DNA of 64,000 nucleotides from an archaeon (GCA_018653485.1 JABHZE010000001.1:68603-132602), one strand, 5' to 3'; positions 1,437 through 17,907 are shown, counted from the first letter of the stretch. Numbers and translations: made by a program. Notes: generated from the letters alone by a model not told the origin.

Positions 1437-1739
1437 ATGAAAATCCACGACCTCCCTAAACAAAACCGCCCCAGAGAACGATTCCTAAAACAAGGCCCCG
1501 AAGCACTAAGTGATGCAGAACTCTTCGCCATCTTCCTCAGAACAGGAACAATAGGGGAAAATGTCATAGATATGTCAAACAGACTTTTAGCAGAATACAC
1601 ATTAGAAAAACTATTTGAATGCAGTCTAAAAGAATTGCAAGCAATCAAAGGAATTGGCCCGAGTAAGGCTATGCAAATTCTCACCATTTCCGAATTAAGT
1701 AAAAGGAGAGAATTAGTTAGCAGATATTCTTTTGAGTGA
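1437..1739 (+). CDS. RadC-like N-terminal helix-hairpin-helix domain only; JAB/MPN domain absent
   Basis: 100-aa ORF. DLPKQNRPRERFLKQGPEALSDAELFAIFLRTGTIGENVIDMSNRLL...LKELQAIKGIGPSKAMQIL matches the conserved RadC/UPF0758 N-terminus. The ORF stops where the JAB domain should begin, and I see no remnant downstream. Confidence 0.55.
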   Translation: MKIHDLPKQNRPRERFLKQGPEALSDAELFAIFLRTGTIGENVIDMSNRLLAEYTLEKLFECSLKELQAIKGIGPSKAMQILTISELSKRRELVSRYSFE

Positions 1740-1776
1740 GAATTAGTAGTAAGGGATATGATAAGTTATAGAAATA

Positions 1777-1784
1777 TTTAAATA
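1777..1784 (+). promoter_or_regulatory. TATA box (TTTAAATA) for the PLD nuclease gene
   Basis: Centred about 27 nt upstream of the ATG at 1807. This argues against the TTG start at 1786 in the ORF track. Confidence 0.45.
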
Positions 1785-1806
1785 ATTGAAACTTGCCTTA
1801 TTTCAT

Positions 1807-2511
1807 ATGGCAAAGTTTTTAGATACATTAGGAATTTCTAATGAGTTAGGTCAGATAATTAAAAATGCTAAAGAGAAATTAGTAATTATAAGCCCCTATC
1901 TCCAAATAAGCGATAGATTTAAAGAAATGCTTGAAGATCAAGACAGAATGAGAATTTATATTGATTTAATTTATCGTAAAAGCAATCTTCAACCTCAAGA
2001 AAGCAATTGGTTAAAGGGTTTGACCTCAGTTAGAACACGTATTTGTAAAACATTGCATGCAAAATGTTATTTGAATGAGAATAAGGCCTTGATCACTTCA
2101 ATGAATTTTTATGAATTTTCTCAGGTTAATAATGAAGAAATGGGAATTGTTGTAAATAAAGATGAAGATCCAGAATTATATGAGGACATTAGTAATGAGG
2201 TTCAAAGATTAATCAGAAATAATGATGAAATAAAAGTGTCTGTAGAAAAAGTTCTTCCAAGAAAAAATAATATTCAAGTTGAAAAAGTAGAAAATGTCAA
2301 AAGAATTACTAATTTTGAGGGTCATTGTATTCGGTGCGATGATAAGATTAAGGTAAACGTTAAAAGCCCATTATGTCCAAAATGTTATAAAAGTTGGAGT
2401 AAATATAATGATAAAGATTATGAAGAAAAATTTTGTCATATGTGCGGTCAAGAAAATAAATCTTCTTTAAATAAGCCAATTTGTTATAGTTGTTATAAGA
2501 AAAATAAATAA
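1807..2511 (+). CDS. Single-HKD phospholipase D-family (Nuc-like) nuclease with two C-terminal CxxC...CxxC zinc ribbons
   Basis: HKD motif LHAKCYLNENKALITSMNF. C-terminus HCIRCDD...CPKCYKSW...FCHMCGQ...ICYSCYKK. Start moved to the ATG at 1807 on TATA spacing; the maximal ORF starts at 1786. Confidence 0.8.
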   Translation: MAKFLDTLGISNELGQIIKNAKEKLVIISPYLQISDRFKEMLEDQDRMRIYIDLIYRKSNLQPQESNWLKGLTSVRTRICKTLHAKCYLNENKALITSMNFYEFSQVNNEEMGIVVNKDEDPELYEDISNEVQRLIRNNDEIKVSVEKVLPRKNNIQVEKVENVKRITNFEGHCIRCDDKIKVNVKSPLCPKCYKSWSKYNDKDYEEKFCHMCGQENKSSLNKPICYSCYKKNK

Positions 2512-2540
2512 TTAGATCATTTTTTATAGTTTTAAGAATA

Positions 2541-4115
2541 ATGAGGTTGAATAGAAAAATGGAAAATAAAGGCCTCTCTAAAACTGTAGGAGAAACTTAT
2601 AGATTGTACACAGAAGGATTTTCAATTCCAGAAATTGCAAATCAAAGAGGTTTTGTGGAATCGACAATATATTCTCATTTTGCAGATTTAATATTAAACA
2701 AATTAATTGAATTAGATAAGATTGTTGAAAAAGAGAAAAAAGAGGAGATATTAGAAATATTAAAAGAAAATGATGTTGAAGGTATAAAAGAAATAAAAGA
2801 GTTGGTTAATGAGTCTATAACTTATGGGGAGATAGTTTGTGTGTTGGCATTTGTAAAATTACAGGGAAATAATATATTAGCTAACATAGTGGCTCCAGAT
2901 ATGAACAAATCTCAAAAGTCTGAGATATTCACTGTGGGAGAACTTACTAAATATATAAAAAATCTATTAGAATCTGATAAAAGATTATCTAATCTATTTG
3001 TTAAAGGAGAAATATCAAATCTAACTTTCCATAACTCTGGTCACACCTATTTTAGTCTAAAAGATAAAGAAAGTCAAATTAGGTGTGTTTTATTTAGACG
3101 GGTTGGAGAAGATCTTAAATTTAATCTTAAACATGGGATGAAAATTATTGTAAGAGGAGATATTGAAATTTATAAGCCACGCGGAGAATATAGTATAATT
3201 GTTGAAGAAATTCAACCAGATGGACTAGGCTCCTTAAATCTAGCATTTATTCAGCTTAAAGAGAAATTAGAAAAAGAAGGGTTATTTCGAAATGAATACA
3301 AAAAAGTATTTCCTAAGTTTCCTAAAACAATTGGAATCATTACATCGCCTACTGGGGCAGCAGTCCAGGATATGTTAAATGTTATAAAAAGACGTTACCC
3401 AGTAGTTAAAGTGTTAATAGCTCCAACACTTGTACAAGGAGAAGGGGCAACTAATTCAATTATTCAATCAATTAAACTAATGAATGAAGCCTCAGACGTT
3501 GATTCAATCATCTTAGGAAGAGGCGGAGGATCACTTGAAGATTTATGGTGTTTTAATGAAGAATCAGTTGCAAGAGCCATATTTGAATCAAAAATTCCCA
3601 TAATTTCTGCAGTAGGACATGAAACAGATTTTACAATTGCTGACTTTGTTGCAGATTATAGGGCTCCAACACCTTCGGCTGCTGCTGAAAAAATTGTTCC
3701 AGATATTAAAGAAATACAAGAACATATCAATCACTTAGAAATAAGATGTGCCAAGTCCCTTTATCATAAATTAAGACTTTGTAGATCTAATTTAAATCAA
3801 ATCATGAATAAATATGTTTTCAAAAAACCTACTGAATTTATACACTCAAACTATAGAGAATTAGACCAAATTGCATATCAATTACAAAATAATATTAAAA
3901 GAATGATTGAAACGAAAAGAAAAGATTTAGAAATTAATGAATCAAAAATTATCGCATTAAATCCTCAAGCAATCTTAGAAAGAGGTTATAGTATTGTAAT
4001 GAATAAAGATAAAATATTAATAAACTCATCAGATGTAGAAAAAGGAGAAGATATAAATATAATATTGCATGGAGGTAAAATAGATGCCAAAGTTAAAAAA
4101 ACCTGGAAAAACTAA
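2541..4115 (+). CDS. xseA: Exodeoxyribonuclease VII large subunit with an extra ~125-aa N-terminal HTH domain
   Basis: OB-fold start FTVGELTKYIKNLLE...LFVKGEISN. Core motifs IGIITSPTGAAVQD, GRGGGSLEDLWCFN, ISAVGHETDFTIADFVADYRAPTPSAAAE. The N-terminal extension contains FSIPEIANQRGFVESTIYSHFADLI (HTH_40-like). An alternative ATG lies at 2559. Confidence 0.85.
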   Translation: MRLNRKMENKGLSKTVGETYRLYTEGFSIPEIANQRGFVESTIYSHFADLILNKLIELDKIVEKEKKEEILEILKENDVEGIKEIKELVNESITYGEIVCVLAFVKLQGNNILANIVAPDMNKSQKSEIFTVGELTKYIKNLLESDKRLSNLFVKGEISNLTFHNSGHTYFSLKDKESQIRCVLFRRVGEDLKFNLKHGMKIIVRGDIEIYKPRGEYSIIVEEIQPDGLGSLNLAFIQLKEKLEKEGLFRNEYKKVFPKFPKTIGIITSPTGAAVQDMLNVIKRRYPVVKVLIAPTLVQGEGATNSIIQSIKLMNEASDVDSIILGRGGGSLEDLWCFNEESVARAIFESKIPIISAVGHETDFTIADFVADYRAPTPSAAAEKIVPDIKEIQEHINHLEIRCAKSLYHKLRLCRSNLNQIMNKYVFKKPTEFIHSNYRELDQIAYQLQNNIKRMIETKRKDLEINESKIIALNPQAILERGYSIVMNKDKILINSSDVEKGEDINIILHGGKIDAKVKKTWKN

Positions 4116-4116
4116 A

Positions 4117-4338
4117 ATGAAAGAAACAATATCTTTTGAAGAGAAATTAAAGCAACTTAAAATGATTGTTGAAGATCTAGAAAATGGAGAGATTCCATTA
4201 AAAGAGTCTATGGGCAAGTATCAGGAAGGCTTAGACTTCATAAAACAATGTCATGAAGAGTTAGAAAATGCTGAATTGAAAATTGAAAAGATCATGAAGA
4301 AAGAAGGGAAGATAACTACAGAGTCTATGAATGATTAG
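4117..4338 (+). CDS. xseB: Exodeoxyribonuclease VII small subunit
   Basis: MKETISFEEKLKQLKMIVEDLENGEIPLKESMGKYQEGLDFIKQCHEELENAELKI is a typical XseB helical hairpin. The ATG is 1 nt after the xseA stop; the maximal ORF starts at 4084 inside xseA. Confidence 0.8.
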   Translation: MKETISFEEKLKQLKMIVEDLENGEIPLKESMGKYQEGLDFIKQCHEELENAELKIEKIMKKEGKITTESMND

Positions 4339-4389
4339 TAAGATTGGATGGAAGAAATAGTTTAAGTAGCTTGTTCAAATTAACTAATG

Positions 4390-4956
4390 TTATCTAAATA
4401 AACCTTTATTTAACTTCTTTTTTATTGTTTCAGTATTTAATTCTATTTTTTCACTATGCGATTCTATAGCTTTTTCCAAGAATCTTATTCTATTTGATAA
4501 GGTGGATTCTGACCTTTCAACCCTCTCAACAGTTTTATTAACTAAACTTTCAAGAATAGTTATTTGACCCTTAATTTCATCTACTTTTTTATCCATCTTA
4601 GATAAATTCAATTTAGAGGTTTTATTGATAGTTTCAATAGATTCATTTAGACTCTTTTTTATAATTTTATCAAAAGTATCTACTTTTTTATTTATTTTTT
4701 GAACTCCTTCATCAATCTTTGAAGGAGATAATTTTGAAGTGTTTTCTATTGTTTTAGAAGATTGTTCTATTAATTTTTTAGTTTCGTTAACAAACCCAGA
4801 TAATGTTTTAGTAAGATTTGACAATTGTTCTTTTGAATCCTCATGAGTCTTTATTACGTCATTTAATTTCTTTAAACTTAACACTAATTCTTTTGCTTCT
4901 TTATTCATACCTAAAAATTCATTTTCCATTTTGTTCCCTAATGTATATTTTATCAT
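4390..4956 (-). CDS. Coiled-coil protein with internal repeats, co-transcribed downstream of the RecQ-like fusion
   Basis: 188-aa K/E/S-rich ORF with repeated TSKL-x-SK-(I/M)D...V(D/Q)(E/K)I segments. It overlaps the end of ORF 4919-8383. The start is uncertain; alternative ATGs lie at 4929 and 4908. Confidence 0.5.
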   Translation of the reverse strand: MIKYTLGNKMENEFLGMNKEAKELVLSLKKLNDVIKTHEDSKEQLSNLTKTLSGFVNETKKLIEQSSKTIENTSKLSPSKIDEGVQKINKKVDTFDKIIKKSLNESIETINKTSKLNLSKMDKKVDEIKGQITILESLVNKTVERVERSESTLSNRIRFLEKAIESHSEKIELNTETIKKKLNKGLFR

Positions 4957-7900
4957 TAATCTCTTTATAAATCTTTTTTATTAAAGTTAATTTGCCATAT
5001 TCTAGAGATACCTGCCTATTATCGAAATACTCAATAAGTTCTTCAGTTAATTCGGGATCATCAATTTTATCTATTAATAATTTACATAACTCTAAACCTC
5101 TTTTTTCATTTATTTTAATAAATTGATACATTAACCAACTTAATATGGGATAAACTTCCCCCTTAGATAGATTGTAATTATTAAATGAAAGTACCATAAA
5201 CTGTTTAATATCTCCAAATATCTTGTTAATATCCCTTTCATTAATTTTTACGCCAGTATATGCTCTTAATATGAATAATCCCATACTCTCTGGAAAATCT
5301 TCTAATGTCCTAGAAATTTGCCCAAATAATGATTTGAAATCAGAAATTGGCTTAATTGAAAAATCATTTAGATCACTTGAACCTTCAATAATCTCTCTAA
5401 TTTGACCCATCATTTTAATAGTATTTTTTGCATTTGCGATACTAACTAGCTGTTTAGAATAAGTCCTCTTTAGAAAATTAGAAATATCTTCCCTAAATAC
5501 CTTATCAGGATCATCAGATTTGCTCGCTTTTTCTATACTATTAAATATAGTTGCTAATGCCTGTCTTCTTCCTTTTTCATGATAATCATATACATAATCT
5601 AAAAACAAATTACAACAAAATAATATAAAATCCTTATTATTTAAATTAATATTACTCATTAATAATTCCTTCTCTTTTTTAGCTCTTAATTTATTATATT
5701 TTTTCACATAATTATAATAGTGGGTAATAATGTTCATTTTAGAAATCTCATTAATTTTTAAGCTAAATTCCTTTGATGCGTAATCTATACCATAATTAGT
5801 TATAGCACCTATTGCAGTTAATCTAAATATTGCTTTTTGTTTAGCTTTAAAAAGATCCTCTCCACTTAACCCTTCATTAATCTCCTCAAATTTAGATTTA
5901 TGGGGTTGATACTCTTTTTCTAAATCTCCAATATCCTCAAGGATACCTTTGATTATGGATAATTCCTCTTTCTTTCCCTTAAAAGTACCATTATGAAAAT
6001 TAAATAAACAACTAAAATCATCCCACTTCTGGTTCTGTTTACATAATTTACGAACTTCATCTAAGGATGTATTTGTATCCATTAGTTTTTTATTTCTTTC
6101 TTCATATTCTGATGAATAAATAATATAACATTCAGATTTTTCTCCATCCCTTCCTGCTCTCCCAGCTTCTTGATAAAATGCTTCTATTGAGGGAGGAAGA
6201 TTAACATGGATAATATACCTAACATTGGGTTTATCAATTCCCATCCCATATCCCTTAGTAGCAATTAAAAGGGGAAATTTATTTTTTTGGAAATTACTTG
6301 CATTAATAATTCTATCATCTTCTTGAGAATGATAAGGTCTAGATATTTTTCCAAAATCTTCATTCATCTTTTCAACAAAAAAATCTACTCCTCGCGGATT
6401 TCTTTCATTATTAGATCTAACCGGACAAAAAATTATTCCACTTTTAGTTTGATTTCCATCAGTATCTAAGAGGGAATCAGTTTTTAACTTAATGGGCAAA
6501 TCTTTTTTAATAAGTCCTTTTACTTTCAAATATTTTTCATTAGAATTACATTCGATTAGGTTAAAATGTAACTCTTTTCTATCAAAAGTTTCAGGACTAA
6601 TTATGGCACCTTCTTCATAGACTTCCAAATCTTCCTTAATATCTATTAAAACATTTTCTGAAGCAGTTCCAGTTAATGCAATTAAAGGAGGAATAAATCC
6701 ATCCTTATTTTCACAATATTTTCTACTATCTTTTCCAACACTAAGATAAGCAGGCCTAAAATCATGCCCCCATTCTGAAACACAATGCGCTTCATCTAAA
6801 ACGATAAGTGAAATTAAATATTTTTGTGTGAATTTTCTTAGAGAATTCCTAAATTCTTGAATAAGGAATCTTTCAGGTGCCACATAAACTAATAAATATT
6901 GCCCATTATAGAATAATTTTTGTATTTTTTCTTTCTCTTGCCTGTTTTCTATATCGCCTGATACTGCAATAGCCCTACTAATTCCCTTCTTTTCCAAGTT
7001 CTCTACTTGATCCTGCATAAGTGATTTTATTGGAACAATTGTAACTGTAATTCCAGGTAATAAAAGTGTTGCTAATTGAAATATTAATGATTTGCCAGCT
7101 CCAGTAGGTAAAAGTGTTATTGTGTCTTTATTCATTAAAACTCTTTTTAATGAATCTATTTGTCCTTCTCGAAAAGATTCATAACCAAAAATATAATTTA
7201 GGAAATATTTCAGAGTTTCAGAGTTAATTTCAGAATTAATTTTAATATTTTCAATTTCTTTAAGTTCTTTAGAAATAATTCTCGGAAAAGAGATATCTTG
7301 TATAATGCATAGAGGTCTATTTGATTTCAGATTTTCATCATAGGTTATTGCAATATCCATATCTTCTATAGATACTAGCTTAATTTTTTCAACTTCTAAT
7401 TTAATATTATATAATTCACATAATTTACAAATCAAATTTTTTAAATCAGTCAAAGCATCATTAATAATAAAATTAATCTCGGATTCAGTAAATTCACTAA
7501 ATGATTTGGTATCAAAATAAAATTTTGTTCTATCTGAAAAATTAATATTTCCCTCAAATAATAACTCTAATAAAGTTACTTGAAACTGATGGGCAATTTT
7601 GAATGAATTGAGAAATTTATCATTTTCAGATTTTGTTTGAATATCTCTAGAAAGATTACTAAGTTCCAGTTCTAATTCCTGAAGGCCATTACAATTAAAG
7701 TTTTCAATATCTGGATTTCTGATTCTTATCTCCTTATAACCCCCTTCAGTTAATCTTTTTGTTCTTGAATCATCTTTTGATTTTTGTTTTTCGTGTTCTC
7801 CCCCATCTAATTCAACAACTATTTTTGATTTATTGGTTGTTATCAAAAAATCTACTCTTTCTTGTGAATCTTTCGATTCTGAAGTAATATCATAATTATA

Positions 7901-8383
7901 AACTAAACTATGAAAACTAACTTGTGGAACTACAAATCTCTTAAATGATTTCCCGAGTAATTTTGACAAAACCGATTCATAGAATTTCTTTTCATATCCT
8001 ACCCCATCAAATTTAAAAGTTGATTCTTTAGATTCATTAACAAAATCGTATGCATACGGATTAAACATCCCATTACCCTTAAACTTTGATTTTAATCTGT
8101 TTTCTAATAAGGGAGATAATAATGTATATTCTCCCCTAGTTAATATTTTATGAGCAATTGATAAAATTGTTTTTTGTTCTGAAGAAACATCCTTCTTATA
8201 ACATTTTGGGAAATCTAGTCTCCATTGGTTAATAAACCTATAATTACCAAAATCCAACTGGTTTTTTGAATCCAACATATTTATAGAATCAAGAATTTCT
8301 TTTGGAAGCGCTATTGATTGATGAAATATTGAAGTGTATCCCTCATTTCGCTCCCTTGCTTTTAAATCTATTATCTCGGCCAT
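4919..8383 (-). CDS. DUF559/Vsr-like restriction-endonuclease-fold domain fused to a RecQ-family SF2 helicase, plus a ~400-aa unknown C-terminal region
   Basis: 1154 aa. N-terminal RVDFLITTNKSKIVVELDGGEHEKQKSKDDSRTKRLTEGGYKEIRIRNPDI is DUF559-like. RecQ motifs: FREGQ, LLPTGAGKSLIFQL, LDEAHCVSEWGHDFRPAY, LTGTA, YHS, GMGIDKPNVRYIIHVNLPPSIEAFYQEAGRAGRDG. Confidence 0.8.
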   Translation of the reverse strand: MAEIIDLKARERNEGYTSIFHQSIALPKEILDSINMLDSKNQLDFGNYRFINQWRLDFPKCYKKDVSSEQKTILSIAHKILTRGEYTLLSPLLENRLKSKFKGNGMFNPYAYDFVNESKESTFKFDGVGYEKKFYESVLSKLLGKSFKRFVVPQVSFHSLVYNYDITSESKDSQERVDFLITTNKSKIVVELDGGEHEKQKSKDDSRTKRLTEGGYKEIRIRNPDIENFNCNGLQELELELSNLSRDIQTKSENDKFLNSFKIAHQFQVTLLELLFEGNINFSDRTKFYFDTKSFSEFTESEINFIINDALTDLKNLICKLCELYNIKLEVEKIKLVSIEDMDIAITYDENLKSNRPLCIIQDISFPRIISKELKEIENIKINSEINSETLKYFLNYIFGYESFREGQIDSLKRVLMNKDTITLLPTGAGKSLIFQLATLLLPGITVTIVPIKSLMQDQVENLEKKGISRAIAVSGDIENRQEKEKIQKLFYNGQYLLVYVAPERFLIQEFRNSLRKFTQKYLISLIVLDEAHCVSEWGHDFRPAYLSVGKDSRKYCENKDGFIPPLIALTGTASENVLIDIKEDLEVYEEGAIISPETFDRKELHFNLIECNSNEKYLKVKGLIKKDLPIKLKTDSLLDTDGNQTKSGIIFCPVRSNNERNPRGVDFFVEKMNEDFGKISRPYHSQEDDRIINASNFQKNKFPLLIATKGYGMGIDKPNVRYIIHVNLPPSIEAFYQEAGRAGRDGEKSECYIIYSSEYEERNKKLMDTNTSLDEVRKLCKQNQKWDDFSCLFNFHNGTFKGKKEELSIIKGILEDIGDLEKEYQPHKSKFEEINEGLSGEDLFKAKQKAIFRLTAIGAITNYGIDYASKEFSLKINEISKMNIITHYYNYVKKYNKLRAKKEKELLMSNINLNNKDFILFCCNLFLDYVYDYHEKGRRQALATIFNSIEKASKSDDPDKVFREDISNFLKRTYSKQLVSIANAKNTIKMMGQIREIIEGSSDLNDFSIKPISDFKSLFGQISRTLEDFPESMGLFILRAYTGVKINERDINKIFGDIKQFMVLSFNNYNLSKGEVYPILSWLMYQFIKINEKRGLELCKLLIDKIDDPELTEELIEYFDNRQVSLEYGKLTLIKKIYKEINDKIYIREQNGK

Positions 8384-8405
8384 AGTAAAACAGGATAAAT
8401 AGTCA

Positions 8406-8530: not shown

Positions 8531-8551
8531 CCTCTTATAACTATCATCTCC

Positions 8552-11500: not shown

Positions 11501-12079
11501 TCTGCTAGAATAAATATTGAAAAATATCCTGCAATAAAAAAGCATTTAGACAAATTTTATGATAAATTAAAAAAACGCCAAGATAAAGGCGATACACCTT
11601 ATAATCTCAGATCCTGTGCATATCTTTCTGAATTTGAAAAGTTTAAAATTGCCTTCCCTGTAATAAATAGAAAATGGAAATTTGTAATAGTTGATAAAGA
11701 TGTTCAGATATTGGCTCCGATGCGTTTCATAACCACTTCAAATTTGAACGAATTAAAATTTATACAAACAATTTTAAAAAGTAATGTTATAAAATATTAT
11801 CATAAGATTAATGGTCCCATGCAGGATGAAACTGGCTATCAAATGGATAATTGGTTTGTTGAATCCTATCCTTTTCCAAACATTAATTCAGTTTTACCAA
11901 AACATTTTATAGAAAAGGTTGATAAAATCCTAAACCTAACAAATGACAAAAAATATTTTGAAGACCAAGAAAAACAAAAAAAAGTTAAAGAAATAGAAAA
12001 AGAGATTAACCAAATGGTTTACAAATTATATGGATTAACTCCTGAAGAAATTAAAATTGTAGAAGAGTTTGAAAAATGA
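8552..12079 (+). CDS. Large Eco57I/type IIG-like N6-adenine DNA methyltransferase with a C-terminal specificity region; N-terminal nuclease not evident
   Basis: 1175 aa. SAM motif I KICDPAVGSGAFPMG. Catalytic motif IV DIVIANPPYIQLQ. Downstream FITSNKWMRLNYGNKLRNFF and GILTGYNDAFVI are typical of type IIG/PglX-like TRD regions. A charged coiled insertion lies between motifs I and IV. Confidence 0.8.
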   Translation: MIKKEINDLITQSFDKTNYKRLLKEIFNFEINKEELVIPETYKSNINGAEKLGEYSKNRENIQFFIVHSNRNIEKAKVFHRDFIAKELIQDHKENALVVFYNKEKWRFSLITINYGEKDGKFTKEKGTAQRASFLVGENEINNTCSQKIADLKENPSIEEVKEAFNVEKVTKEFFKEYRKLFKELGEKMESLYKTDKKIKLEFDEKDVDYVEFAKKTLGQIVFLYFLQKKEWLGVNKNEKYGSGQKDFLTKLFHNQECSDFFNDVLEPLFYNGFNKDRTNKKDYYSALDLRIPFLNGGLFEPLGNYNWEKTDILLGKNIFKNIFKTFNEFNFTISEHEPSEREVAVDPEMLGKIFEQLGAINKENFTEWKNAINSGKKSEEMKFNKSNGVYYTPREIVNYMCQQSLINYIDTNTEEKITKKDIEKFVLLGDEAQKIIEEEERHIEERGRFKTINQENSIPTSIKKNYTLIDDLLWNVKICDPAVGSGAFPMGILQEIVRLRRILSVFYTSSEKEKRTPYELKKETIENCIYGVDIDPSAIEIAKLRFWLSLVVDEKFEEDKIRPLPNLDFKLMQGNSLLEEFEGIKLFDKILLEHREKGISGIEKIENKIKEVKNQIIEASKNNIEKDKQIKELRKLERKKQTLSKKGGGSNLTLFMKNSEIKKTILKSLQKRLFDENDASEKDKIKHRIDKAIWEFIETTLKEENRQEDLEKIKKEWAKRKRNFFLWELNFMDVFDRKNPGFDIVIANPPYIQLQKNEGEHTKLYKNNNFDSFDKTGDIYCLFYEFGVNLLRINGVLSFITSNKWMRLNYGNKLRNFFITKTNPILLMDLGSGIFDTAIVDTNILFLEKNDNKNHIFGCSLANHSLANNSIPDYIENNKVKLETPLNTSWKILPKRDQMLILKIRHNKIQLSERDIKMHRGILTGYNDAFVINHDIKKSLIKKDPKSREIIVPLLRGRDVSKYLRGIFNSYLINTHNGVRRGSARINIEKYPAIKKHLDKFYDKLKKRQDKGDTPYNLRSCAYLSEFEKFKIAFPVINRKWKFVIVDKDVQILAPMRFITTSNLNELKFIQTILKSNVIKYYHKINGPMQDETGYQMDNWFVESYPFPNINSVLPKHFIEKVDKILNLTNDKKYFEDQEKQKKVKEIEKEINQMVYKLYGLTPEEIKIVEEFEK

Positions 12080-12276
12080 ATCTTAAAGAAATTATATTTA
12101 CTATTCTTATGTTTTTTATTGGATATGTTCTAAAATCCGCATTTAAAGAATCACTTTGTTCAATTAATTCATTAGGATGTTTTGTAGGATTTGTTGCGTA
12201 TACCTTGCCAGTAATTATTATTGGAGTTTATTGGTTAAATAAAATATATCCCTCTTTAGAAAAATTGTTGAAATAA
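12076..12276 (+). CDS. Small two-TM membrane peptide translationally coupled to the methyltransferase
   Basis: 66-aa ORF. Its ATG overlaps the methyltransferase stop (ATGA at 12076-12079). Two hydrophobic helices: IIFTILMFFIGYVL and FVGFVAYTLPVIIIGVYWL. Confidence 0.5.
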   Translation: MNLKEIIFTILMFFIGYVLKSAFKESLCSINSLGCFVGFVAYTLPVIIIGVYWLNKIYPSLEKLLK

Positions 12277-12292
12277 AGAGAATTAAACCAAA

Positions 12293-15200
12293 TTAAACAA
12301 ACCACTCACTCAAAATTATTTCTTCGGGCTTATCCTTATTATCCTCTTCATTTTCCTCTATCCTATATTTCTTAAAAAACTCTTTTGGAATATTCCCCAT
12401 TAAGAATGTATACGCTTCAACATTATCTAATTTAACGACTTTCTTCAAAGATTTTGAGTCAGGAATCTTTTTTTCTTTTAACAAATCTTCAATTTTTTCC
12501 AACATATCTAATTCTTTTTCATACAATCTTTTATCTTTTTTCATTAATACTATTTTATTCATAATTATCTTTGCATTCCCTGTTAATCCCGCACCCATTT
12601 TCTTTTTTGGTTTACAATCTTCCAAAAATTTCTCCCTTAACTTAGCAAACTTTTTATAAAAATCTTTTTTATCTAAATTAATTGATTTTTCATTTTTTTC
12701 TGCTTTAATAATTTCGATTATTTTCTCAAAATCTATCACTTCTCCAACCTCATTTTTATCATAGGAATATGCGAATTTAAAATTCCCTTTCTTAAAAAAA
12801 CTAAAAAGCTCTGAATTTTTCTTTTTTCTTCCAAGTTTTATTTTCCCAGGCAAACTTTCAATTTTCTTAAATAATTCTCGATTATTTTCCCTTATATTTC
12901 TAATAAACATTCTTTCAGTATCTTCCATTGTTGTTAAAGAATCTTCTTGTTGAACAGAAGACTGAAGACGTTGAAAAAATTCTTTATGACTAAGAATTTC
13001 CTCATCTTCAAAAAGAAGTTTAGAATCATTCCCTAGAAGCCTAATAAATGCCTTTATTTTTTCTTCTGCATTTTCTTGCAATTTTATTTTATCATTAATT
13101 TTTTTTGCAGGAAAGAAATTATAGGTATTAATTTCATTAAAAGGTAAATCTTTTGCAACCCTATCAATTCTTCCAACTCTTTGAATGACTCTAACGGGAT
13201 TCCAAGGAATATCATAATTTAAAACTTTATTTGCACGATTTAAATTAACTCCTTCAGATAAAGTATCTGTTGAAATTAAAACATTATAATCGTTTTTTTG
13301 ATTCTTTGAAAAATGATCAAAATTTTCAATAACTTCTTCCTTTAATTTTTCTCCAGAAGAACCTGAAAAAGTTATAACATCCTTTCTATTGAGTTCTTTT
13401 TTTAGATAATCAATAGTATCTTTTGATTCACTAAAAACAATTATTTTCTTTTCATTTTCTGGAAGTTTGTTCAAAAAATCCCTAAAAGAATTTAATTTTG
13501 GGTCAATTTTAACTTTTTCCCATATTTCTTGAATCTTTTTTAAATTATTCAAATCAGATTCTAATAATTTCCTAAAACTTGGTTTAAATTCTTTTTTGAG
13601 ATATTTTTTACCTTTTTCATTTTGAACTAATTTTTCTATCTCCTCCCACCTTTCACCTTCAATAAAATCAAACACCTTTGCATAATAATCCTCACTTACA
13701 ACAATAAATCCTTTTTCATCATAAGATTTTATTGAGGCTTCATAATGCCTTATAAATCTCTTAACAGATTCTCTAAATGCATGAAAACTGCTTTCTAGTC
13801 TCTTTGCTACAAGAATTTTCATAAAATGTTTAATATTCTTCTGAGGAGTTTTCTTGTTTTCATCTATATCTTTTTTTAAGTAAAGTATTGGAGCATACCT
13901 ACAATACTTCATATTCTTTTCATCTAAAAGTAATTCCAAGGTTTCTTCAAAAATTCCATCTAATTTTTCATCAAATTCATAATATAATGTCTTAGGAGTA
14001 TTAACTTTTGGAAATCTAAGGCCTTGTTTATCCATATCTTGAGAAAATAATTTTTTAATATCCGACCTAGTCCTTCTTATCATGACCTTTCTTAAGATCC
14101 TATTTCTTATATCATCAGAAATTTTTTTAAGTTCATCCAAATATTCTTTTCGAGATATTTTTTCTTCGTTTAATTCTTTTTTTAGTTTTACCCTTTTAGA
14201 TCTAATCTCTGTAAAATATCTATCTAAATCTTTAATGCTTGGATGAAATTTAGCATTCTTCATCGGCGTAAATAATGCAATTTGATTTTTTAAATCATCT
14301 GGGCGATTATTTAGAGGGGTAGCAGTAACTAAAATAACATTTTTCCCTCTACAAATAGCAGAAAGTTGAGAATACATTTTAGTATTTTCATTTCTAAATC
14401 TATGGGCTTCATCAATTACAATATTATCATAATCATCTACACCCTTTCTTAGAATTTTATCTAATTTACCAATAGATTCAAATTCTCCTTTATTTCTAAG
14501 AATTTCAAAACTATCAAAGACATTTTGCCAAGATCCGGGATTTTCTTTATTTACTAACATTGGAGGTGCAATTACAAGAGTTTTTCCAGGGAGCTCTTTC
14601 ATTAACATTGTAGTTATAAATGTTTTACCCAAACCAACTACATCTGAAATAAAAACACCACCATATTTATTTAATATTTTTCTTGCCCTTCCCACTGCAT
14701 CTTTTTGATAATCTAAATCCATTAAATGAGTTGGGGCAGAAATCTTTCTTTCTTCAAAATCCAATTCATCTTTAAAATACTCTTGAAGGAATTTTAAATA
14801 AAATTCATAAGGAGTTATATCTTCTCTAAATTGACTATTTTTTTCTATAGTTTGAACATGTAATTCAGATACATCTACAGAGTGGTTTTCCCATAAATCA
14901 TCAAAGATTTTTTTAATTTCTATGTAATCTTCCTTATCTTGTAAAAAAACATTAAATTCAATATTATCTTCCAACCCCGCTTTAGTCAAATTACTTGAAC
15001 CCGTTATAACTGTCCCTGGTTGTAATTGCCGAGAATTATTTTTATCATAAGTCATAATGTAAACCTTCGCATGAGTCCTATTCTTACAAGCTCTAATTTT
15101 TAATTTTCTACTTTTTATCCAATTCTTTAATTTATTTACTCCCTCTTCAACATCTAACTTAAACTCTGCAGAATCAATATCTTTCAATGTTTGTTTTTTA

Positions 15201-15448
15201 TGCTCTTTTTTTATTTCTTTTTCTGTAAGTTCATTAATGGATTTTATTTCATCATAGAATTTATCATCCATAGCGATTCCAGTAAGAATCTTAATCTCTT
15301 CTACATTTTCTAGATAATCATGTATTTTGTAAAAACCGCTTTTGTAAAGATATGCTACAAGACAATCAAATTCCTTACTGGAAGATAATTGTTCAGTCAA
15401 TATTGGAGAAAGTTTATTTTCTTCCTGGTTAGTTATAAATGATCCCAT
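12293..15448 (-). CDS. PLD (HKD) nuclease domain fused to an SNF2-family helicase/translocase
   Basis: 1051 aa. N-terminal HKD motif THAKVYIM...GSSNLTKAGL. SNF2 motifs DVVGLGKTF, IDEAHRFRN, LVTATPLNN, STDTLSEGVNL, NYDIPWNPVRVIQRVGRIDR. About 300 aa of unknown C-terminal tail. Confidence 0.85.
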   Translation of the reverse strand: MGSFITNQEENKLSPILTEQLSSSKEFDCLVAYLYKSGFYKIHDYLENVEEIKILTGIAMDDKFYDEIKSINELTEKEIKKEHKKQTLKDIDSAEFKLDVEEGVNKLKNWIKSRKLKIRACKNRTHAKVYIMTYDKNNSRQLQPGTVITGSSNLTKAGLEDNIEFNVFLQDKEDYIEIKKIFDDLWENHSVDVSELHVQTIEKNSQFREDITPYEFYLKFLQEYFKDELDFEERKISAPTHLMDLDYQKDAVGRARKILNKYGGVFISDVVGLGKTFITTMLMKELPGKTLVIAPPMLVNKENPGSWQNVFDSFEILRNKGEFESIGKLDKILRKGVDDYDNIVIDEAHRFRNENTKMYSQLSAICRGKNVILVTATPLNNRPDDLKNQIALFTPMKNAKFHPSIKDLDRYFTEIRSKRVKLKKELNEEKISRKEYLDELKKISDDIRNRILRKVMIRRTRSDIKKLFSQDMDKQGLRFPKVNTPKTLYYEFDEKLDGIFEETLELLLDEKNMKYCRYAPILYLKKDIDENKKTPQKNIKHFMKILVAKRLESSFHAFRESVKRFIRHYEASIKSYDEKGFIVVSEDYYAKVFDFIEGERWEEIEKLVQNEKGKKYLKKEFKPSFRKLLESDLNNLKKIQEIWEKVKIDPKLNSFRDFLNKLPENEKKIIVFSESKDTIDYLKKELNRKDVITFSGSSGEKLKEEVIENFDHFSKNQKNDYNVLISTDTLSEGVNLNRANKVLNYDIPWNPVRVIQRVGRIDRVAKDLPFNEINTYNFFPAKKINDKIKLQENAEEKIKAFIRLLGNDSKLLFEDEEILSHKEFFQRLQSSVQQEDSLTTMEDTERMFIRNIRENNRELFKKIESLPGKIKLGRKKKNSELFSFFKKGNFKFAYSYDKNEVGEVIDFEKIIEIIKAEKNEKSINLDKKDFYKKFAKLREKFLEDCKPKKKMGAGLTGNAKIIMNKIVLMKKDKRLYEKELDMLEKIEDLLKEKKIPDSKSLKKVVKLDNVEAYTFLMGNIPKEFFKKYRIEENEEDNKDKPEEIILSEWFV

Positions 15449-15455
15449 GTTCTTA

Positions 15456-16190
15456 TTAAGATATTTTAATTTTTAAACTATCCTTTTCTTCTCCAATCTG
15501 CCAAAAATACATATCTATGATTTTCATAGGAGTATAATCTCCTGCATTATACTTTTCTTTTAAGTCTCCCCTTAATTCATTGATATCTTTTTTATACTTA
15601 TCATAAAATCCTAATAATTCCTCAAAAGATTTATTTTTATTAAAATTCTTTCTGATCTTCTTCTCATCACTCAAACCCTCCATAAAAAATCGGTCATATG
15701 CAGGAATGCACCCCATGGTGCCTAATAAAATCTTTGTGATTAAAGTATAAGAAATTTGATTTCCTTGCAAATATCTTTTTTTAGTTCCTTCCAAATCCGG
15801 ATGATTTTTAGTGGTCTCTTTAATTTTTATAAGTACATTTTCAATTTCTTTATAAATTTTAGAAAATTTTTCTATTAAATCTTCGCTTTTATTTAAATTA
15901 TCTTCAATTTCCCAAAGAATAGAATATTCTTTTTTTAAAATAATTCCAACTATCTCTTTAAAAATAGTATAATCTTTTTGCAATATGAAACTAGAACCTC
16001 TATACATTCCCCAACTAGCTAAATAAAATGCTAAATGTAATTGAGCTAAATCTAATTCTTCTTTATCTATTTCTTTATCCTTAATTTTCTTAAAGAAATT
16101 GTAACAATGTTCCCAGGATTTATAACGGTGATCTGGAATAGAATTTATACTTTGATAAAATTTTTCTACATTATTGGTGATTTCATTCAT
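15456..16190 (-). CDS. Hypothetical protein, middle gene of the nuclease-helicase operon
   Basis: 244-aa ORF. 8-nt overlap with the upstream gene and a 7-nt gap to the downstream gene. Conserved-looking block LHLAFYLASWGMYRGSSFIL, but no motif I can name. Confidence 0.6.
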   Translation of the reverse strand: MNEITNNVEKFYQSINSIPDHRYKSWEHCYNFFKKIKDKEIDKEELDLAQLHLAFYLASWGMYRGSSFILQKDYTIFKEIVGIILKKEYSILWEIEDNLNKSEDLIEKFSKIYKEIENVLIKIKETTKNHPDLEGTKKRYLQGNQISYTLITKILLGTMGCIPAYDRFFMEGLSDEKKIRKNFNKNKSFEELLGFYDKYKKDINELRGDLKEKYNAGDYTPMKIIDMYFWQIGEEKDSLKIKIS

Positions 16191-17373
16191 CTTCTTTGTC
16201 CTTCCGCTTACTTAAACTTAACCTAAAACTCTTCTCTAACTCAACCATTTTCTTTACATCTTTATCAACTTCTCCCTTGATTACTTCGCTATTAACCTTT
16301 GCATAACTTAACATATTAAAATCATCCCACAATCCTTTATCCTTCAATAACTTAACAAGTTTTTCTTTATCTTCTCCCTCAGGCATAATTATCTTATCAG
16401 ATTCTTTTACAGAACATTTCTTATTACTCCCATAAACAACATCTATATCAAACTGCTTTGCATAAGCAATTAATTTTTCTTTAAAATCTGCATCTTGTTT
16501 TTTCAACTCCCCTAATTTCATCTTAATCTCAGAAAACTCATCAACTAATTTAACACCTTCATCTTCCTTGAATTTCTCAACTTCCTTAATTTTTTCAAGT
16601 TCTGCTTCATGTTTAAAACTAGGACACATTGCCTTATAATCACAATAATCACAAAGCGCATTCTTATTTCTTGGAAATTCTGTTGCAGATTCTATCTCTT
16701 TAATCTTATCACAAACTTCTTTCTGCAATTTCTCTAATTCCTCATCACTTCTTTCAGACACAGCATCTTTATTAAAAGCAAGCATATGCCAAACTAATTT
16801 AACAGATTTAGCATCCTTAAATTTATTTTTAACCCAAATAGAATAAAGTGCAAGTTGTCTATCATTATCTGCTTCTTCTTGATCTTTCATTCTAGAATTT
16901 GTTTTATAATCGCAAACAAAATAATTCCCCTCAGAATCACAGCCCAATTTATCAATTCTAACATGCCATTTGTTCCCATCAGGCAAAGTCATTCTATCTG
17001 TAGTTTCTAATCCTAATATGGTAAGTTGGTCAAAAGGTTCCATTCTATCATAATAATCAGAAATAAATTGCTCTCCCATTTTCCTATAATTCTCAGAATT
17101 AACACCTTCTTTCTCTGCTTTCACAATCAAAATATCATTAGAATATCTTCTCTCCCATAATTCATTATAATCTTTAATCAAATTTGCTTTAGATATTTCC
17201 TTTTTAAATTTTATATCTTTATATAAACCATCCAATGCCTCATGAACAATACTCCCTAAGAAAGCTTCAATAGTATCAGGAATTTCTGGTCTAATCTTAT
17301 CAATATACCTCAATTTATATTGGTAAGGGCAATTTTCATAAGTGCCTAATCGTGAGTGTGAATAACATGTCAT
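16183..17373 (-). CDS. Cas4/AddB-like PD-(D/E)XK nuclease with a 1+3 Cys Fe-S cluster pattern and a charged C-terminal extension
   Basis: One N-terminal Cys (YENCPYQYKLRY) plus LCDYCDYKAMCP later, the Cas4-type C...CxxC-x5-C arrangement. The D/E-x-K core region is plausible (FVCDYKT). Start set to the ATG at 17373 (MTCYSHSRLG), 28 nt below a TATA box; the maximal ORF runs to 17460. Confidence 0.7.
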   Translation of the reverse strand: MTCYSHSRLGTYENCPYQYKLRYIDKIRPEIPDTIEAFLGSIVHEALDGLYKDIKFKKEISKANLIKDYNELWERRYSNDILIVKAEKEGVNSENYRKMGEQFISDYYDRMEPFDQLTILGLETTDRMTLPDGNKWHVRIDKLGCDSEGNYFVCDYKTNSRMKDQEEADNDRQLALYSIWVKNKFKDAKSVKLVWHMLAFNKDAVSERSDEELEKLQKEVCDKIKEIESATEFPRNKNALCDYCDYKAMCPSFKHEAELEKIKEVEKFKEDEGVKLVDEFSEIKMKLGELKKQDADFKEKLIAYAKQFDIDVVYGSNKKCSVKESDKIIMPEGEDKEKLVKLLKDKGLWDDFNMLSYAKVNSEVIKGEVDKDVKKMVELEKSFRLSLSKRKDKEDE

Positions 17374-17397
17374 CTTACTAACAAATACCAACCCAAC

Positions 17398-17405
17398 TAT
17401 ATAAA
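17398..17405 (-). promoter_or_regulatory. TATA box (minus-strand TTTATATA) for the Cas4-like nuclease operon
   Basis: Plus-strand TATATAAA at 17398-17405, centred about 28 nt upstream of the ATG at 17373. Confidence 0.45.
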
Positions 17406-17477
17406 TCTTTCTAATTGTAACCCCTTTATAGTTACAGCAGAGTATAAGAACTTCTACCAAATCACTTCAAGAACCCC

Positions 17478-17906: not shown

Positions 17907-17907
17907 T

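What the first reader, a model, noticed from the sequence alone, without database searches (positions are those of the whole stretch)
1437..17460. About 16 kb nuclease/helicase/methylase island with DISARM-like parts but no visible DUF1998 component
Seen in order: truncated RadC, PLD-zinc-ribbon nuclease, xseAB, coiled-coil protein, DUF559-like::RecQ helicase, a divergent 1175-aa N6-adenine methyltransferase plus TM peptide, then the convergent PLD::SNF2 / unknown / Cas4-like operon. Established: class 1 DISARM comprises an adenine MTase (DrmMI), an SNF2 helicase (DrmD), a large helicase (DrmA), DUF1998 (DrmB) and PLD (DrmC). Inference: four of those five functional classes are present here, but re-partitioned as PLD fused to SNF2, a second free PLD, and RecQ-type instead of DrmA-type. 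No four-Cys DUF1998-like ORF is obvious. This could be a divergent archaeal DISARM relative or a stack of independent systems.
Basis: partly seen in the sequence, partly recalled or inferred. Interest (0 to 1): 0.8.

Follow-up and report, generated by a model that had tools for sequence, protein, structure and literature searches.

The report
Patchwork island; two-gene methylase–nuclease-helicase core
The 16-kb stretch is not one DISARM-like system but several unrelated modules side by side; its real core is a widespread, still uncharacterised two-gene restriction-like pair: an adenine methylase and a PLD-nuclease/SNF2 motor protein.

Summary
No DUF1998/DrmB or DrmA is present in the region or in the ten largest other ORFs scanned in the window. 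The single-system reading fails. In 80 genomes carrying a PLD::SNF2 homologue, 66 have a homologue of the 1175-aa methylase, usually directly downstream and start/stop-coupled. None has the RecQ fusion, the free PLD, XseAB or the coiled-coil protein. The DUF559::RecQ helicase plus its small partner is a separate conserved pair. In nine other contexts it lies beside RecJ/RadC, other RM systems or integrases, and only once next to a distant paralogue of the methylase/helicase pair. The methylase is PglX/Eco57I-like with a variable recognition domain and no detectable nuclease domain. Its first 200 residues co-vary with the helicase (r=0.81), while its recognition domain does not (r=0.14). I read the core (8552-15448) as a minimal ATP-dependent RM-like system: the methylase reads and marks the site, and PLD::SNF2 translocates and cuts. 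It is related to MANTIS/BR type-2 and to the DrmD-DrmMI pair, but lacks their extra ATPase/helicase components. The Cas4-like and 244-aa genes are lineage-specific additions. This is a new variant of a known kind, of moderate interest.

The parts
8552..12079 (+). PglX/Eco57I-type N6-adenine DNA methylase, 1175 aa. Layout: N-terminal domain of about 200 aa of unknown fold; helical/motif-X region 200-470 (FxQKKGW, LEPLF, PFLNGGLF, DPExLG, YTPR); catalytic core 470-860 (DPAVGSGAF, NPPY); variable target-recognition region 860-1175. Core gene 1 of the RM-like pair.
   Evidence: Pfam Eco57I 9e-37. PADLOC REase_MTase_IIG PDLC03596 2e-227. Homologues lie next to the PLD::SNF2 homologue in 66/80 loci. 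Conservation map. N-terminal domain has no Pfam or PDB hit and no acidic/Lys triad.
12293..15448 (-). HKD (PLD) nuclease fused to an SNF2-type SF2 ATPase, 1051 aa. Core gene 2 and the presumed translocase-nuclease effector.
   Evidence: Pfam PLDc_2, SNF2-rel_dom and Helicase_C. PADLOC C3a139 'HKD+Snf2' 1e-44 over the full length. The family is 42-47% identical over the full length across bacteria and archaea. Catalytic residues are invariant.
12076..12276 (+). 66-aa hydrophobic ORF overlapping the methylase stop. It may be a lineage-specific membrane peptide or may not be a gene.
   Evidence: Sequence. A non-homologous hydrophobic 95-aa ORF sits at the same position in L081. Absent from canonical loci, 1/47.
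15456..16190 (-). 244-aa all-alpha protein of a large uncharacterised family. It occupies a variable cargo slot between the Cas4-like gene and PLD::SNF2.
   Evidence: 2043 representative homologues. AF2 pLDDT 94 with no PDB or BFVD fold match. The slot holds an unrelated HhH/FeS-like gene in L081. Homologues sit beside integrases on 79 viral contigs.
16183..17460 (-). Cas4/AddB-like PD-(D/E)XK nuclease with a Cys cluster (likely start 17376). It is the first gene of the operon with PLD::SNF2 in this lineage and is an accessory, not a core part.
   Evidence: PDDEXK_1 1e-29. Cas4 models 1e-7 to 1e-10. 73% identical and syntenic in L081, 39% in L062. Also found near a RecQ fusion without PLD::SNF2 in L175. 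Absent from 79/80 loci.
4919..8383 (-). DUF559 (Vsr-like nuclease)::RecQ-family helicase, 1154 aa. A separate module, not part of the RM-like pair.
   Evidence: Contexts.
4390..4956 (-). 188-aa coiled-coil protein, the conserved downstream partner of the RecQ fusion.
   Evidence: A small ORF follows the RecQ fusion in 9/9 other contexts, and tblastn shows it homologous in 8.
1786..2511 (+). Single-HKD PLD nuclease with two C-terminal zinc ribbons. It is associated with the RecQ pair in three relatives.
   Evidence: PLDc_2. phrog_9329 2e-64. 61% identical homologue divergent from RecQ in L092, L174 and L262.
2541..4338 (+). xseA (with an N-terminal HTH_40 domain) and xseB: exonuclease VII, an ordinary repair function.
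   Evidence: TIGR00237 499 bits; Exonuc_VII_S 2.5e-17. Never linked to the other modules.
1437..1739 (+). RadC N-terminal fragment (UPF0758_N plus HhH). The JAB domain is missing.
   Evidence: Full-length RadC lies near the RecQ pair in L091 and L261.

Best explanation
The region is a mosaic of at least three unrelated units.

**Unit A (8552-15448, extended in this lineage to 17460).** This is a self-contained, mobile, two-gene restriction-modification-like system.
- The 1175-aa PglX/Eco57I-type methylase finds a short, probably asymmetric, DNA site through its variable C-terminal recognition region and methylates an adenine there. That marks host DNA as self (inferred from family).
- It has no nuclease domain of its own.
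- At unmethylated sites it recruits or licenses its partner, the PLD::SNF2 protein, probably through its first ~200 residues, which co-vary with the helicase (inferred).
- PLD::SNF2 then uses ATP to move along or remodel the DNA and cuts it with a single HKD active site formed by a dimer, as in MANTIS MtsD, SauUSI and BfiI (inferred by analogy).
- In this lineage the two genes have become convergent. The helicase gene has acquired two upstream genes: a Cas4-like nuclease, possibly an auxiliary nuclease or element-borne, and a swappable 244-aa cargo gene.

**Unit B (4390-8383, possibly with 1786-2511).** This is a DUF559::RecQ-like helicase-nuclease with an obligate small coiled-coil partner. 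It is a conserved pair of this archaeal lineage, found next to RecJ, RadC or an RQC/HRDC gene, or next to integrases and other RM systems.

**Unit C.** XseAB and a RadC fragment, which are ordinary repair genes.

The units lie together because this chromosomal neighbourhood is an insertion hot spot, not because they cooperate.
For: **Shown**
- PLD::SNF2 homologues (30-46% identity) from more than 20 bacterial and archaeal phyla have a methylase homologue in 66/80 loci. It is on the same strand in all 66 and directly downstream in all but a small subfamily in which it lies upstream. The remaining loci are almost all cut off at a contig end.
- In 51 of 64 pairs the helicase stop and methylase start lie within -28..+14 nt of each other.
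- No third conserved gene exists. The next cluster is in 9/80 loci.
- RecQ, the free PLD, XseAB and the coiled-coil protein occur in 0/80.
- The closest relative, L081 (helicase 72% identical), keeps Cas4-like, slot gene, PLD::SNF2 and the convergent methylase. It has no RecQ, XseAB or free PLD, and an integrase lies nearby.
- L062 has the same set co-directional, plus an M78/DUF4411 pair and an integrase.
- The closest RecQ relative, L261 (71%), has RecJ, RecQ, the small ORF and RadC, and no defence genes.
- L262 carries a distant paralogous PLD::SNF2 plus methylase (27% and 25% identity) separated from the PLD-RecQ pair by an integrase. That indicates independent insertion at the same place.
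- Catalytic motifs of both enzymes are intact.
- In the methylase N-terminal domain the only invariant residues are R107, S109, R131, T144, F165, E173 and F174. It has no Pfam, PDB-sequence or Foldseek nuclease match.
- Helicase distances track the methylase N-terminal domain (Mantel r=0.81, n=44, p<=0.001), but much less the 200-470 region (0.40) and the catalytic core (0.45), and barely the recognition region (0.14).

**From the literature**
- PLD-SF2 plus N6A methylase acts as effector plus self-marker in MANTIS/BR type-2 (bioRxiv 10.64898/2026.09.23.753747; PMC12839542).
- A Lactococcus plasmid operon of the same two domain architectures was read the same way (PMC6098607).
Against: - There are no experimental data for this two-gene family: no methylation motif, no cleavage, no phage assay.
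- In MANTIS, methylation needs an AAA+ loader and a co-factor that are absent here, so autonomy of the methylase is assumed rather than shown.
- Absence of a nuclease in the methylase N-terminal domain is negative evidence from a model with pLDDT 75.
- The co-variation could reflect recombination breakpoints rather than physical contact.
- The window and L081 have the pair convergent, so here they are not one transcript.
- Two of ten RecQ contexts, including the window, have a PLD::SNF2/methylase pair nearby. A loose functional link cannot be fully excluded.
Confidence: 0.72

Rival explanations
1. This is one divergent archaeal DISARM-like system. The RecQ fusion replaces DrmA/DrmB, PLD::SNF2 combines DrmD and DrmC, and the methylase is DrmMI.
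For: Four functional classes lie within 16 kb. There are weak hits to DrmD, DrmC and DrmMI models. L262 also has a PLD::SNF2/methylase pair near a PLD-RecQ pair.
Against: No DUF1998/YprA-type helicase anywhere. The RecQ fusion is absent from 80/80 PLD::SNF2 loci, and eight of nine other RecQ contexts lack the pair. The L262 pair is only 25-27% identical and is separated by an integrase. NCBIfam DISARM cut-offs are missed by a factor of four or more.
Confidence: 0.04
2. The methylase is a genuine self-sufficient type IIG restriction-methylase, as REBASE and PADLOC label it. PLD::SNF2 is an independent enzyme, for example a SauUSI-like type IV restriction enzyme, that merely travels with it.
For: PADLOC REase_MTase_IIG 2e-227 over the full length. 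About 200 N-terminal residues are unassigned, where type IIG enzymes carry their nuclease. MtsD/SauUSI-like proteins can act as autonomous dimers (10.64898/2026.09.23.753747).
Against: The adjacency is near-obligate and usually translationally coupled. The N-terminal domain has no conserved D..(D/E)xK and no nuclease match. The N-terminal domain co-varies with the helicase. PLD::SNF2 has no recognisable modified-base reader or recognition domain. An orthologous-type Lactococcus methylase was also found to lack a restriction domain (PMC6098607).
Confidence: 0.1
3. In this lineage the functional unit is larger: Cas4-like nuclease, the 244-aa protein, PLD::SNF2, the methylase and the TM peptide together. 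This would be an archaeal four- or five-gene variant in which the Cas4-like nuclease processes DNA ends made by PLD::SNF2.
For: The operon is tight, with an 8-nt overlap and a 7-nt gap. Cas4-like is conserved with PLD::SNF2 in L081 (73%) and L062 (39%). BREX-related systems often recruit auxiliary nucleases (PMC12839542).
Against: Cas4-like is absent from 79/80 loci, and a 49%-identical copy sits elsewhere without PLD::SNF2 (L175). The middle gene is non-homologous between the window and L081 and is mostly a prophage-end cargo gene. The TM ORF is not conserved. Integrases and TA pairs in L062 and L081 suggest element-borne passengers.
Confidence: 0.2
4. The pair is a degenerate BR type-2/MANTIS system that has lost MtsA (DUF499) and MtsB (DUF3780), and is therefore inactive.
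For: Same effector architecture (HKD N-terminal to an SF2 ATPase) and an N6A methylase. Weak hits to NF042964 and PADLOC PLD_Helicase.
Against: The two-gene form is the rule in 66/80 loci over many phyla, with intact motifs and 40-47% full-length conservation. That implies selection on a working two-gene unit. No DUF499- or DUF3780-like neighbour cluster exists. NF042964 scores 118 bits against a cut-off of 1100.
Confidence: 0.05

Closest known systems
MANTIS / Gao_RL / BREX-related (BR) type-2 system (MtsA-D)
   Same: The effector has an N-terminal HKD/PLD nuclease fused to an SF2 ATPase. An N6-adenine methylase serves as site reader and self-marker. It follows RM-like logic, and it is mobile and found in both bacteria and archaea.
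   Different: There is no DUF499 AAA+ ATPase (MtsA) and no small MtsB protein (DUF3780; written DUF3870 in the MANTIS preprint), both of which MANTIS needs for methylation. The methylase here is a large PglX/Eco57I-type enzyme with an extra N-terminal domain. The curated model NF042964 is missed (118 against 1100 bits).
Class 1 DISARM (DrmD-DrmMI-DrmA-DrmB-DrmC) and ARMADA
   Same: An SNF2-family ATPase gene is paired with a PglX-like adenine methylase gene, and a PLD nuclease is present.
   Different: There is no YprA-type helicase or DUF1998 (DrmA/DrmB, ArmC). The PLD is fused to the SNF2 protein rather than being a separate DrmC. Curated DrmD and DrmC cut-offs are not reached.
Type ISP (LlaGI, LlaBIII) and Type III (EcoP15I) ATP-dependent restriction enzymes
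   Same: A nuclease plus SF2 motor is combined with a gamma-class adenine methylase and a recognition domain. Asymmetric sites and hemimethylation are likely. This is the best mechanistic analogy: a 'type ISP split into two genes'.
   Different: The nuclease is HKD/PLD, not Mrr or PD-(D/E)XK. The motor is SNF2-like. The system is two polypeptides, with the nuclease-motor encoded first.
Type IIG restriction-methylases (Eco57I, MmeI, BpuSI), the database label for the methylase
   Same: Eco57I-type methylase core, the MmeI-like helical/motif-X region (PFLNGGLF, YTPR), a C-terminal recognition domain, and a size above 1000 aa.
   Different: No detectable PD-(D/E)XK nuclease domain, and an obligate helicase-nuclease partner gene.
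L. lactis pLd8 orf33-orf34 (PMC6098607)
   Same: The authors describe a PLD-SNF2-helicase gene next to a REBASE 'type IIG' methylase that lacks a restriction domain, and they note the resemblance to class 1 DISARM.
   Different: It was only annotated, not tested. I could not align it to the window pair, because the Lactococcus plasmids found here carry a different PLD-helicase/DUF4391/methylase operon.

Membership tests
DISARM class 1 | DrmA (YprA-type helicase) and DrmB (DUF1998) | tested here: not met
   No Pfam DUF1998 hit and no PADLOC DrmB hit in any ORF of the region or in the ten largest other ORFs of the window. The only four-Cys motifs are the PLD241 zinc ribbons. The C-terminus of the RecQ fusion has no Cys cluster.
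DISARM class 1 | DrmD (SNF2), DrmMI and DrmC at family level | tested here: not met
   NF038317 DrmD 137 bits against a cut-off of 610. NF038319 DrmC 30 and 17.5 bits against 133. DrmMI 1.8e-36 against 2e-227 for the IIG model.
DISARM class 1 | All components conserved as one gene cluster | tested here: not met
   RecQ and the free PLD occur in 0/80 PLD::SNF2 loci. RecQ contexts lack the pair in 8/9.
MANTIS / BR type-2 | DUF499 AAA+ ATPase (MtsA) and the small MtsB protein (DUF3780) in the locus | tested here: not met
   No such Pfam hits in the window. No conserved third gene in 80 loci.
MANTIS / BR type-2 | HKD-nuclease::SF2 ATPase effector plus N6A methylase | tested here: met
   at the level of architecture only. 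NF042964 scores 118 bits against a cut-off of 1100.
Type IIG restriction-methylase | N-terminal PD-(D/E)XK endonuclease domain in the same polypeptide | tested here: inconclusive
   No nuclease domain by Pfam, by PDB profile or by Foldseek on an AF2 model with pLDDT 75. No invariant acidic/Lys triad. This is negative evidence only.
Type IIG restriction-methylase | Eco57I/MmeI-type gamma N6A methylase core plus C-terminal recognition domain | tested here: met
   Pfam Eco57I 9e-37 and MmeI_Mtase 1.6e-4. TaqI_C in the L081 homologue. The C-terminal third is variable.
Type IIG restriction-methylase | Acts alone, with no partner ATPase | not testable with these tools
   Synteny argues against it, with 66/80 adjacent pairs. 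Biochemistry is needed.
BREX (PglX) | PglZ, BrxC and other BREX core genes | tested here: not met
   None in the window or in the 80 loci. NF033452 scores 94 bits against a cut-off of 500. Some partial homologues are auto-named PglX.
Two-gene PLD::SNF2 + PglX-like methylase family (unnamed) | Adjacent, usually overlapping helicase-then-methylase genes with intact HKD, Walker A/DEAH and NPPY motifs | tested here: met
   Motifs are intact. Adjacency is met, but the orientation is convergent here and in L081, whereas the canonical form is co-directional.
RecQ family (TIGR00614) | RecQ helicase core above the curated cut-off | tested here: met
   269 bits against 219.8. It lacks RQC/HRDC and carries an N-terminal DUF559.

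The most novel reading that the evidence does not exclude
The stand-alone PLD::SNF2 plus PglX-like methylase pair is a distinct, very widespread class of ATP-dependent restriction system: a 'type ISP split in two, with a PLD nuclease'. It would be the minimal form of the BREX/DISARM/MANTIS family. The methylase's own N-terminal domain would do the job of the AAA+ loader or adaptor by docking the helicase-nuclease directly. At present databases file it as 'type IIG'.
Probability: 0.45. Interest if true: 0.6.

Novelty: new variant of a known kind. Interest (0 to 1): 0.42.

Why it matters
If the two-gene pair works as proposed, a family present in hundreds of bacterial and archaeal species is mislabelled as single-protein 'type IIG' restriction enzymes. 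The scan hit its 600-stretch limit in one-genome-per-species data. Defence-system counts and predictions of methylase specificity and cleavage for these loci would be wrong. The pair would also be the simplest available model for how methylase-guided SNF2/PLD effectors in BREX-related, DISARM and MANTIS systems are recruited, because it lacks the extra ATPases that complicate those systems. The co-variation of the methylase N-terminal domain with the helicase gives a concrete, testable interface. For the scan itself, the result shows that several nuclease, helicase and methylase genes lying together in a DPANN-like genome is hot-spot stacking, not a new multi-gene system.

Tried and rejected
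- **Metagenome scan with a RecQ-fusion alignment.** The patterns chosen were generic RecQ motifs, so nearly all 80 loci were ordinary RecQ genes.
- **Viral-contig scan with the free PLD.** No relatives found.
- **Context look-up of the nearest 244-aa homologue, P0361.** The contig is 1 kb, which is useless.
- **Foldseek of the methylase N-terminal 470 aa against PDB, and of the 244-aa protein against PDB and BFVD.** No match with E<1e-3.
- **Profile of the N-terminal domain against Pfam and PDB sequences.** Nothing consistent.
- **Cluster look-up to name the organism.** Names are withheld for window proteins. Archaeal origin is inferred only from the ThrRS archaeal editing domain and from archaeal relatives.
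- **Repeat, promoter and terminator scans of 1-20 kb.** Nothing above chance. No inverted repeats explain the gene inversion.
- **tRNA and Rfam scans.** Nothing, so no att-like tRNA border was found.
- **Small hydrophobic ORF after the methylase as a conserved part.** Rejected, 1/47 loci.
- **Considered and rejected by PADLOC hits or lack of them.** Hma/BR type-1 (C-terminal PD-(D/E)XK and DUF499 absent); Dpd (DpdE/F/K hits reflect shared helicase or PLD cores, and NCBIfam cut-offs are missed); Azaca and Mokosh (weak domain-level hits only); Hhe (no hit among the PADLOC families returned).

Full report
**Observation**

The largest intergenic gap is 168 nt. Domain scans confirm each label:
- RadC N-terminal fragment: UPF0758_N plus HhH, 100 aa.
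- A single-HKD PLD protein with two C-terminal CxxC..CxxC ribbons.
- XseA (TIGR00237, 499 bits; it also has an N-terminal HTH_40) and XseB.
- A 188-aa coiled-coil protein.
- A DUF559::RecQ-family helicase (TIGR00614, 269 bits against a cut-off of 219.8).
- A 1175-aa Eco57I-type N6A methylase.
- A 66-aa hydrophobic ORF.
- PLD::SNF2, 1051 aa.
- A 244-aa protein with no family.
- A PD-(D/E)XK Cas4-like protein with a Cys cluster.

The window has no tRNA or Rfam hits. A ThrRS with an archaeal-type editing domain and archaeal relatives suggest a DPANN-like archaeon. The identical contig recurs in Saanich Inlet metagenomes.

**The DUF1998 question**

No ORF in the region, and none of the ten largest ORFs elsewhere in the window, hits DUF1998, DrmB or a DrmA-specific model. 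The C-terminal 400 aa of the RecQ fusion has no Cys cluster. In six frames of the first 20 kb, the only four-Cys motifs are the zinc ribbons of the free PLD. These do not match DUF1998. Curated DISARM models are missed by wide margins: DrmD 137 against 610 bits, and DrmC 30 against 133 bits.

**What belongs together**

A search with PLD::SNF2 found a very large, tightly conserved family: about 1050-1080 aa, 42-47% identical over the full length, in many bacterial and archaeal phyla. I fetched 80 loci from one-genome-per-species data; the scan hit its 600-stretch limit.
- 66 of the 80 loci encode a homologue of the 1175-aa methylase, on the same strand in every case and directly downstream in all but a small subfamily in which it lies upstream.
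- Nearly all the others are contigs that end within 1.5 kb of the helicase.
- In 51 of 64 pairs the helicase stop and methylase start lie within -28..+14 nt of each other.
- Clustering all neighbouring ORFs found no third conserved gene. The next cluster, an AlbA_2/ATPase-like protein inserted between the two genes, occurs in 9 loci.
- The RecQ fusion, free PLD, XseA, XseB, coiled-coil protein and RadC fragment occur in none of the 80 loci. The Cas4-like and 244-aa genes occur in one.

The closest relative is L081, with a helicase 72% identical. It has Cas4-like (73%), then a 248-aa gene, then PLD::SNF2, then an inserted HTH/M78-DUF4411 pair. A convergent small hydrophobic ORF and methylase follow, then regulators and an integrase. 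It has no RecQ, XseAB or free PLD. Its 248-aa gene is unrelated to the window's 244-aa gene and looks HhH/FeS-like from its sequence.

A Thermoplasmatales locus (L062) has Cas4-like, a 244-aa homologue, PLD::SNF2 and the methylase co-directional, again with M78/DUF4411 and an integrase.

So the core is the two-gene pair. The upstream genes are lineage-specific, and the whole looks element-borne.

**The RecQ unit**

The DUF559::RecQ architecture is its own family, 1140-1300 aa. I examined nine other contexts.
- Every one has a small ORF overlapping or abutting the 3' end. It is homologous to the window's coiled-coil protein in eight.
- A 61%-identical homologue of the free PLD lies divergently upstream in three (L092, L174, L262).
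- The closest relative (L261, 71%) has RecJ, RecQ, the small ORF, an Rce1-like gene and full-length RadC, with no defence genes.
- L091 has a type I RM system between the pair and RadC.
- L263 has a separate RQC/HRDC gene next to it.
- Integrases lie upstream in L174, L262 and L263.
- L262 also has a PLD::SNF2 plus methylase pair. It is only 27% and 25% identical to the window's and is separated by the integrase. That indicates an independent insertion at the same hot spot.
- L175 has a 49%-identical Cas4-like gene near RecQ without any PLD::SNF2.

I conclude that RecQ plus its partner, perhaps with the PLD-zinc-ribbon protein, is a resident or separately mobile unit. It is probably repair-type or a defence candidate in its own right. 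XseAB and RadC are ordinary repair genes.

**Nature of the methylase**

PADLOC's best model is 'REase_MTase_IIG' (2e-227). That model evidently represents this very family. DrmMI and PglX models score far lower. Some partial homologues are auto-named PglX.

The conservation map shows four parts:
- an N-terminal domain of about 200 aa;
- a strongly conserved region from 200 to 470 (FxQKKGW, LEPLF, PFLNGGLF, DPExLG, YTPR), which from my own knowledge of these families resembles the helical/motif-X part of MmeI/PglX-type enzymes;
- the catalytic core (DPAVGSGAF, NPPY);
- a poorly conserved C-terminal third, the expected recognition domain (TaqI_C in L081).

In a diverse alignment the N-terminal domain keeps only R107, S109, R131, T144, F165, E173 and F174 invariant. 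There is no D..(D/E)xK triad. It has no consistent Pfam hit and no PDB profile hit. The AF2 model of residues 1-470 (pLDDT 75) has no Foldseek match. This is negative evidence, but it agrees with what was reported for a Lactococcus plasmid operon of the same two domain architectures (PMC6098607).

**Coupling**

Across 44 pairs of the main clade, helicase sequence distance was compared with distance in each part of the methylase.

| Methylase region | Correlation with helicase distance |
|---|---|
| N-terminal domain (1-200) | r=0.81 (Mantel p<=0.001) |
| Residues 200-470 | r=0.40 |
| Catalytic core (470-860) | r=0.45 |
| Recognition region (860-1175) | r=0.14 |

Between the window and L081 the helicase is 72% identical, but the methylase is only 45% (N-terminal domain), 40% (core) and 31% (recognition region). 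The simplest reading is that the N-terminal domain stays matched to its helicase partner while the rest of the methylase is exchanged. That fits a docking role for the N-terminal domain. This is inference.

**Mechanism proposed**

- The methylase reads and marks the site.
- At unmodified sites it engages PLD::SNF2.
- PLD::SNF2 hydrolyses ATP and cuts with an HKD site formed across a dimer.

All catalytic motifs of PLD::SNF2 are invariant in the family and present here. The analogy is to MANTIS MtsD, SauUSI and BfiI, and to type ISP/III logic (bioRxiv 10.64898/2026.09.23.753747; PMC3874165). MANTIS needs an AAA+ loader and a small co-factor for methylation. Neither exists here, and this is the main mechanistic unknown.

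**Comparison with known systems**

The pair shares its kind with several SNF2-plus-PglX-like-methylase modules: class 1 DISARM, ARMADA, BREX-3 and Hma/BR systems (PMC12458937, PMC12839542, PMC11232893). It fails the defining features of each: no YprA/DUF1998, no DUF499/DUF3780, and no PglZ/BrxC. More distant PLD-helicase relatives on plasmids also sit in methylase operons, but with other layouts. I found no paper that characterises the stand-alone pair. PMC6098607 annotated an operon of the same two domain architectures and noted the DISARM resemblance.

**Verdict**

The single DISARM-like system is not supported. 'A stack of independent systems' is supported. The valuable residue is the two-gene pair, which is a new variant of a known kind. 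It is widespread, mislabelled as type IIG, and experimentally untouched. Interest is moderate.

Noticed in passing
window 15456-16190 (-): The 244-aa protein belongs to a large family with no Pfam model: 2043 representatives at 50% clustering. Some members are fused to DUF7662 or DUF7669. The AF2 model is very confident (pLDDT 94, all-alpha) and has no PDB or BFVD fold match. Homologues lie on 79 IMG/VR contigs, often near a contig end and, in 33 of them, with a tyrosine-integrase-like gene nearby, like prophage cargo (possibly defence or anti-defence).
   Followed up: partly
window 4390-8383 (-) and 1786-2511 (+); L092, L174, L262: The DUF559(Vsr-like)::RecQ helicase always has a small coiled-coil partner gene at its 3' end (9/9 other contexts). 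In three relatives it has a divergent PLD-zinc-ribbon gene (phrog_9329, 2e-64). This may be an uncharacterised three-gene helicase-nuclease unit. In L263 a separate RQC/HRDC gene lies beside it.
   Followed up: partly
L262:1-7046 compared with window 8552-15448: A second genome has a PLD::SNF2 plus methylase pair next to the PLD-RecQ unit. The pair is only 25-27% identical to the window's and an integrase lies between the two units. That implies repeated insertion of analogous modules at the same chromosomal hot spot.
   Followed up: yes
L062:16671-19910 and L081:4930-6565, 13237-14541: An HTH_3/Peptidase_M78 (ImmA/IrrE-like) plus DUF4411 gene pair and an integrase travel with the Cas4-like/PLD::SNF2/methylase set in two archaeal relatives. 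They are absent from the window.
   Followed up: no
window 12076-12276 (+); L081:6566-6853 (-): Short hydrophobic ORFs (66 and 95 aa, unrelated in sequence) directly follow the methylase gene only in the two loci with the convergent layout. They are absent after 46 of 47 canonical methylase genes.
   Followed up: yes
window 18621-19343 and 19359-20006 (+): These are tandem paralogous genes (240 and 215 aa, no family). Direct repeats include the first 31 nt at 90% identity and a 131-nt stretch at 75%.
   Followed up: no
window 2541-4115 (+): XseA carries an N-terminal HTH_40 domain (6e-22), a domain otherwise seen at the C-terminus of some bacterial RecQ proteins. XseAB and RadC are bacterial-type repair genes in a genome whose ThrRS (55039-56733) has an archaeal editing domain.
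   Followed up: no
window 31690-33057 (-): A radical SAM/SPASM protein (455 aa) with a weak PADLOC viperin (pVip) hit of 4.5e-7. It is probably a peptide-maturase-type enzyme rather than a defence gene.
   Followed up: no
window 17478-18114 (-): A 142-aa protein has weak retropepsin-like aspartyl protease hits (Asp_protease_2 3e-3; TIGR03698 9e-4; PADLOC candidate PDC-M52B 2e-5). A DUF5678 protein (68 aa) lies immediately beside the Cas4-like gene.
   Followed up: no
L177 (Thermus oshimai pTHEOS02), L178 (Thermococcus profundus plasmid), L259 (L. lactis pUL021B): More distant PLD-helicase relatives (25-29% identity) also sit in methylase operons, but with other layouts: methylase-hypothetical-helicase, or helicase-DUF4391-methylase. 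The PLD-helicase/methylase partnership therefore extends beyond the family studied here.
   Followed up: partly
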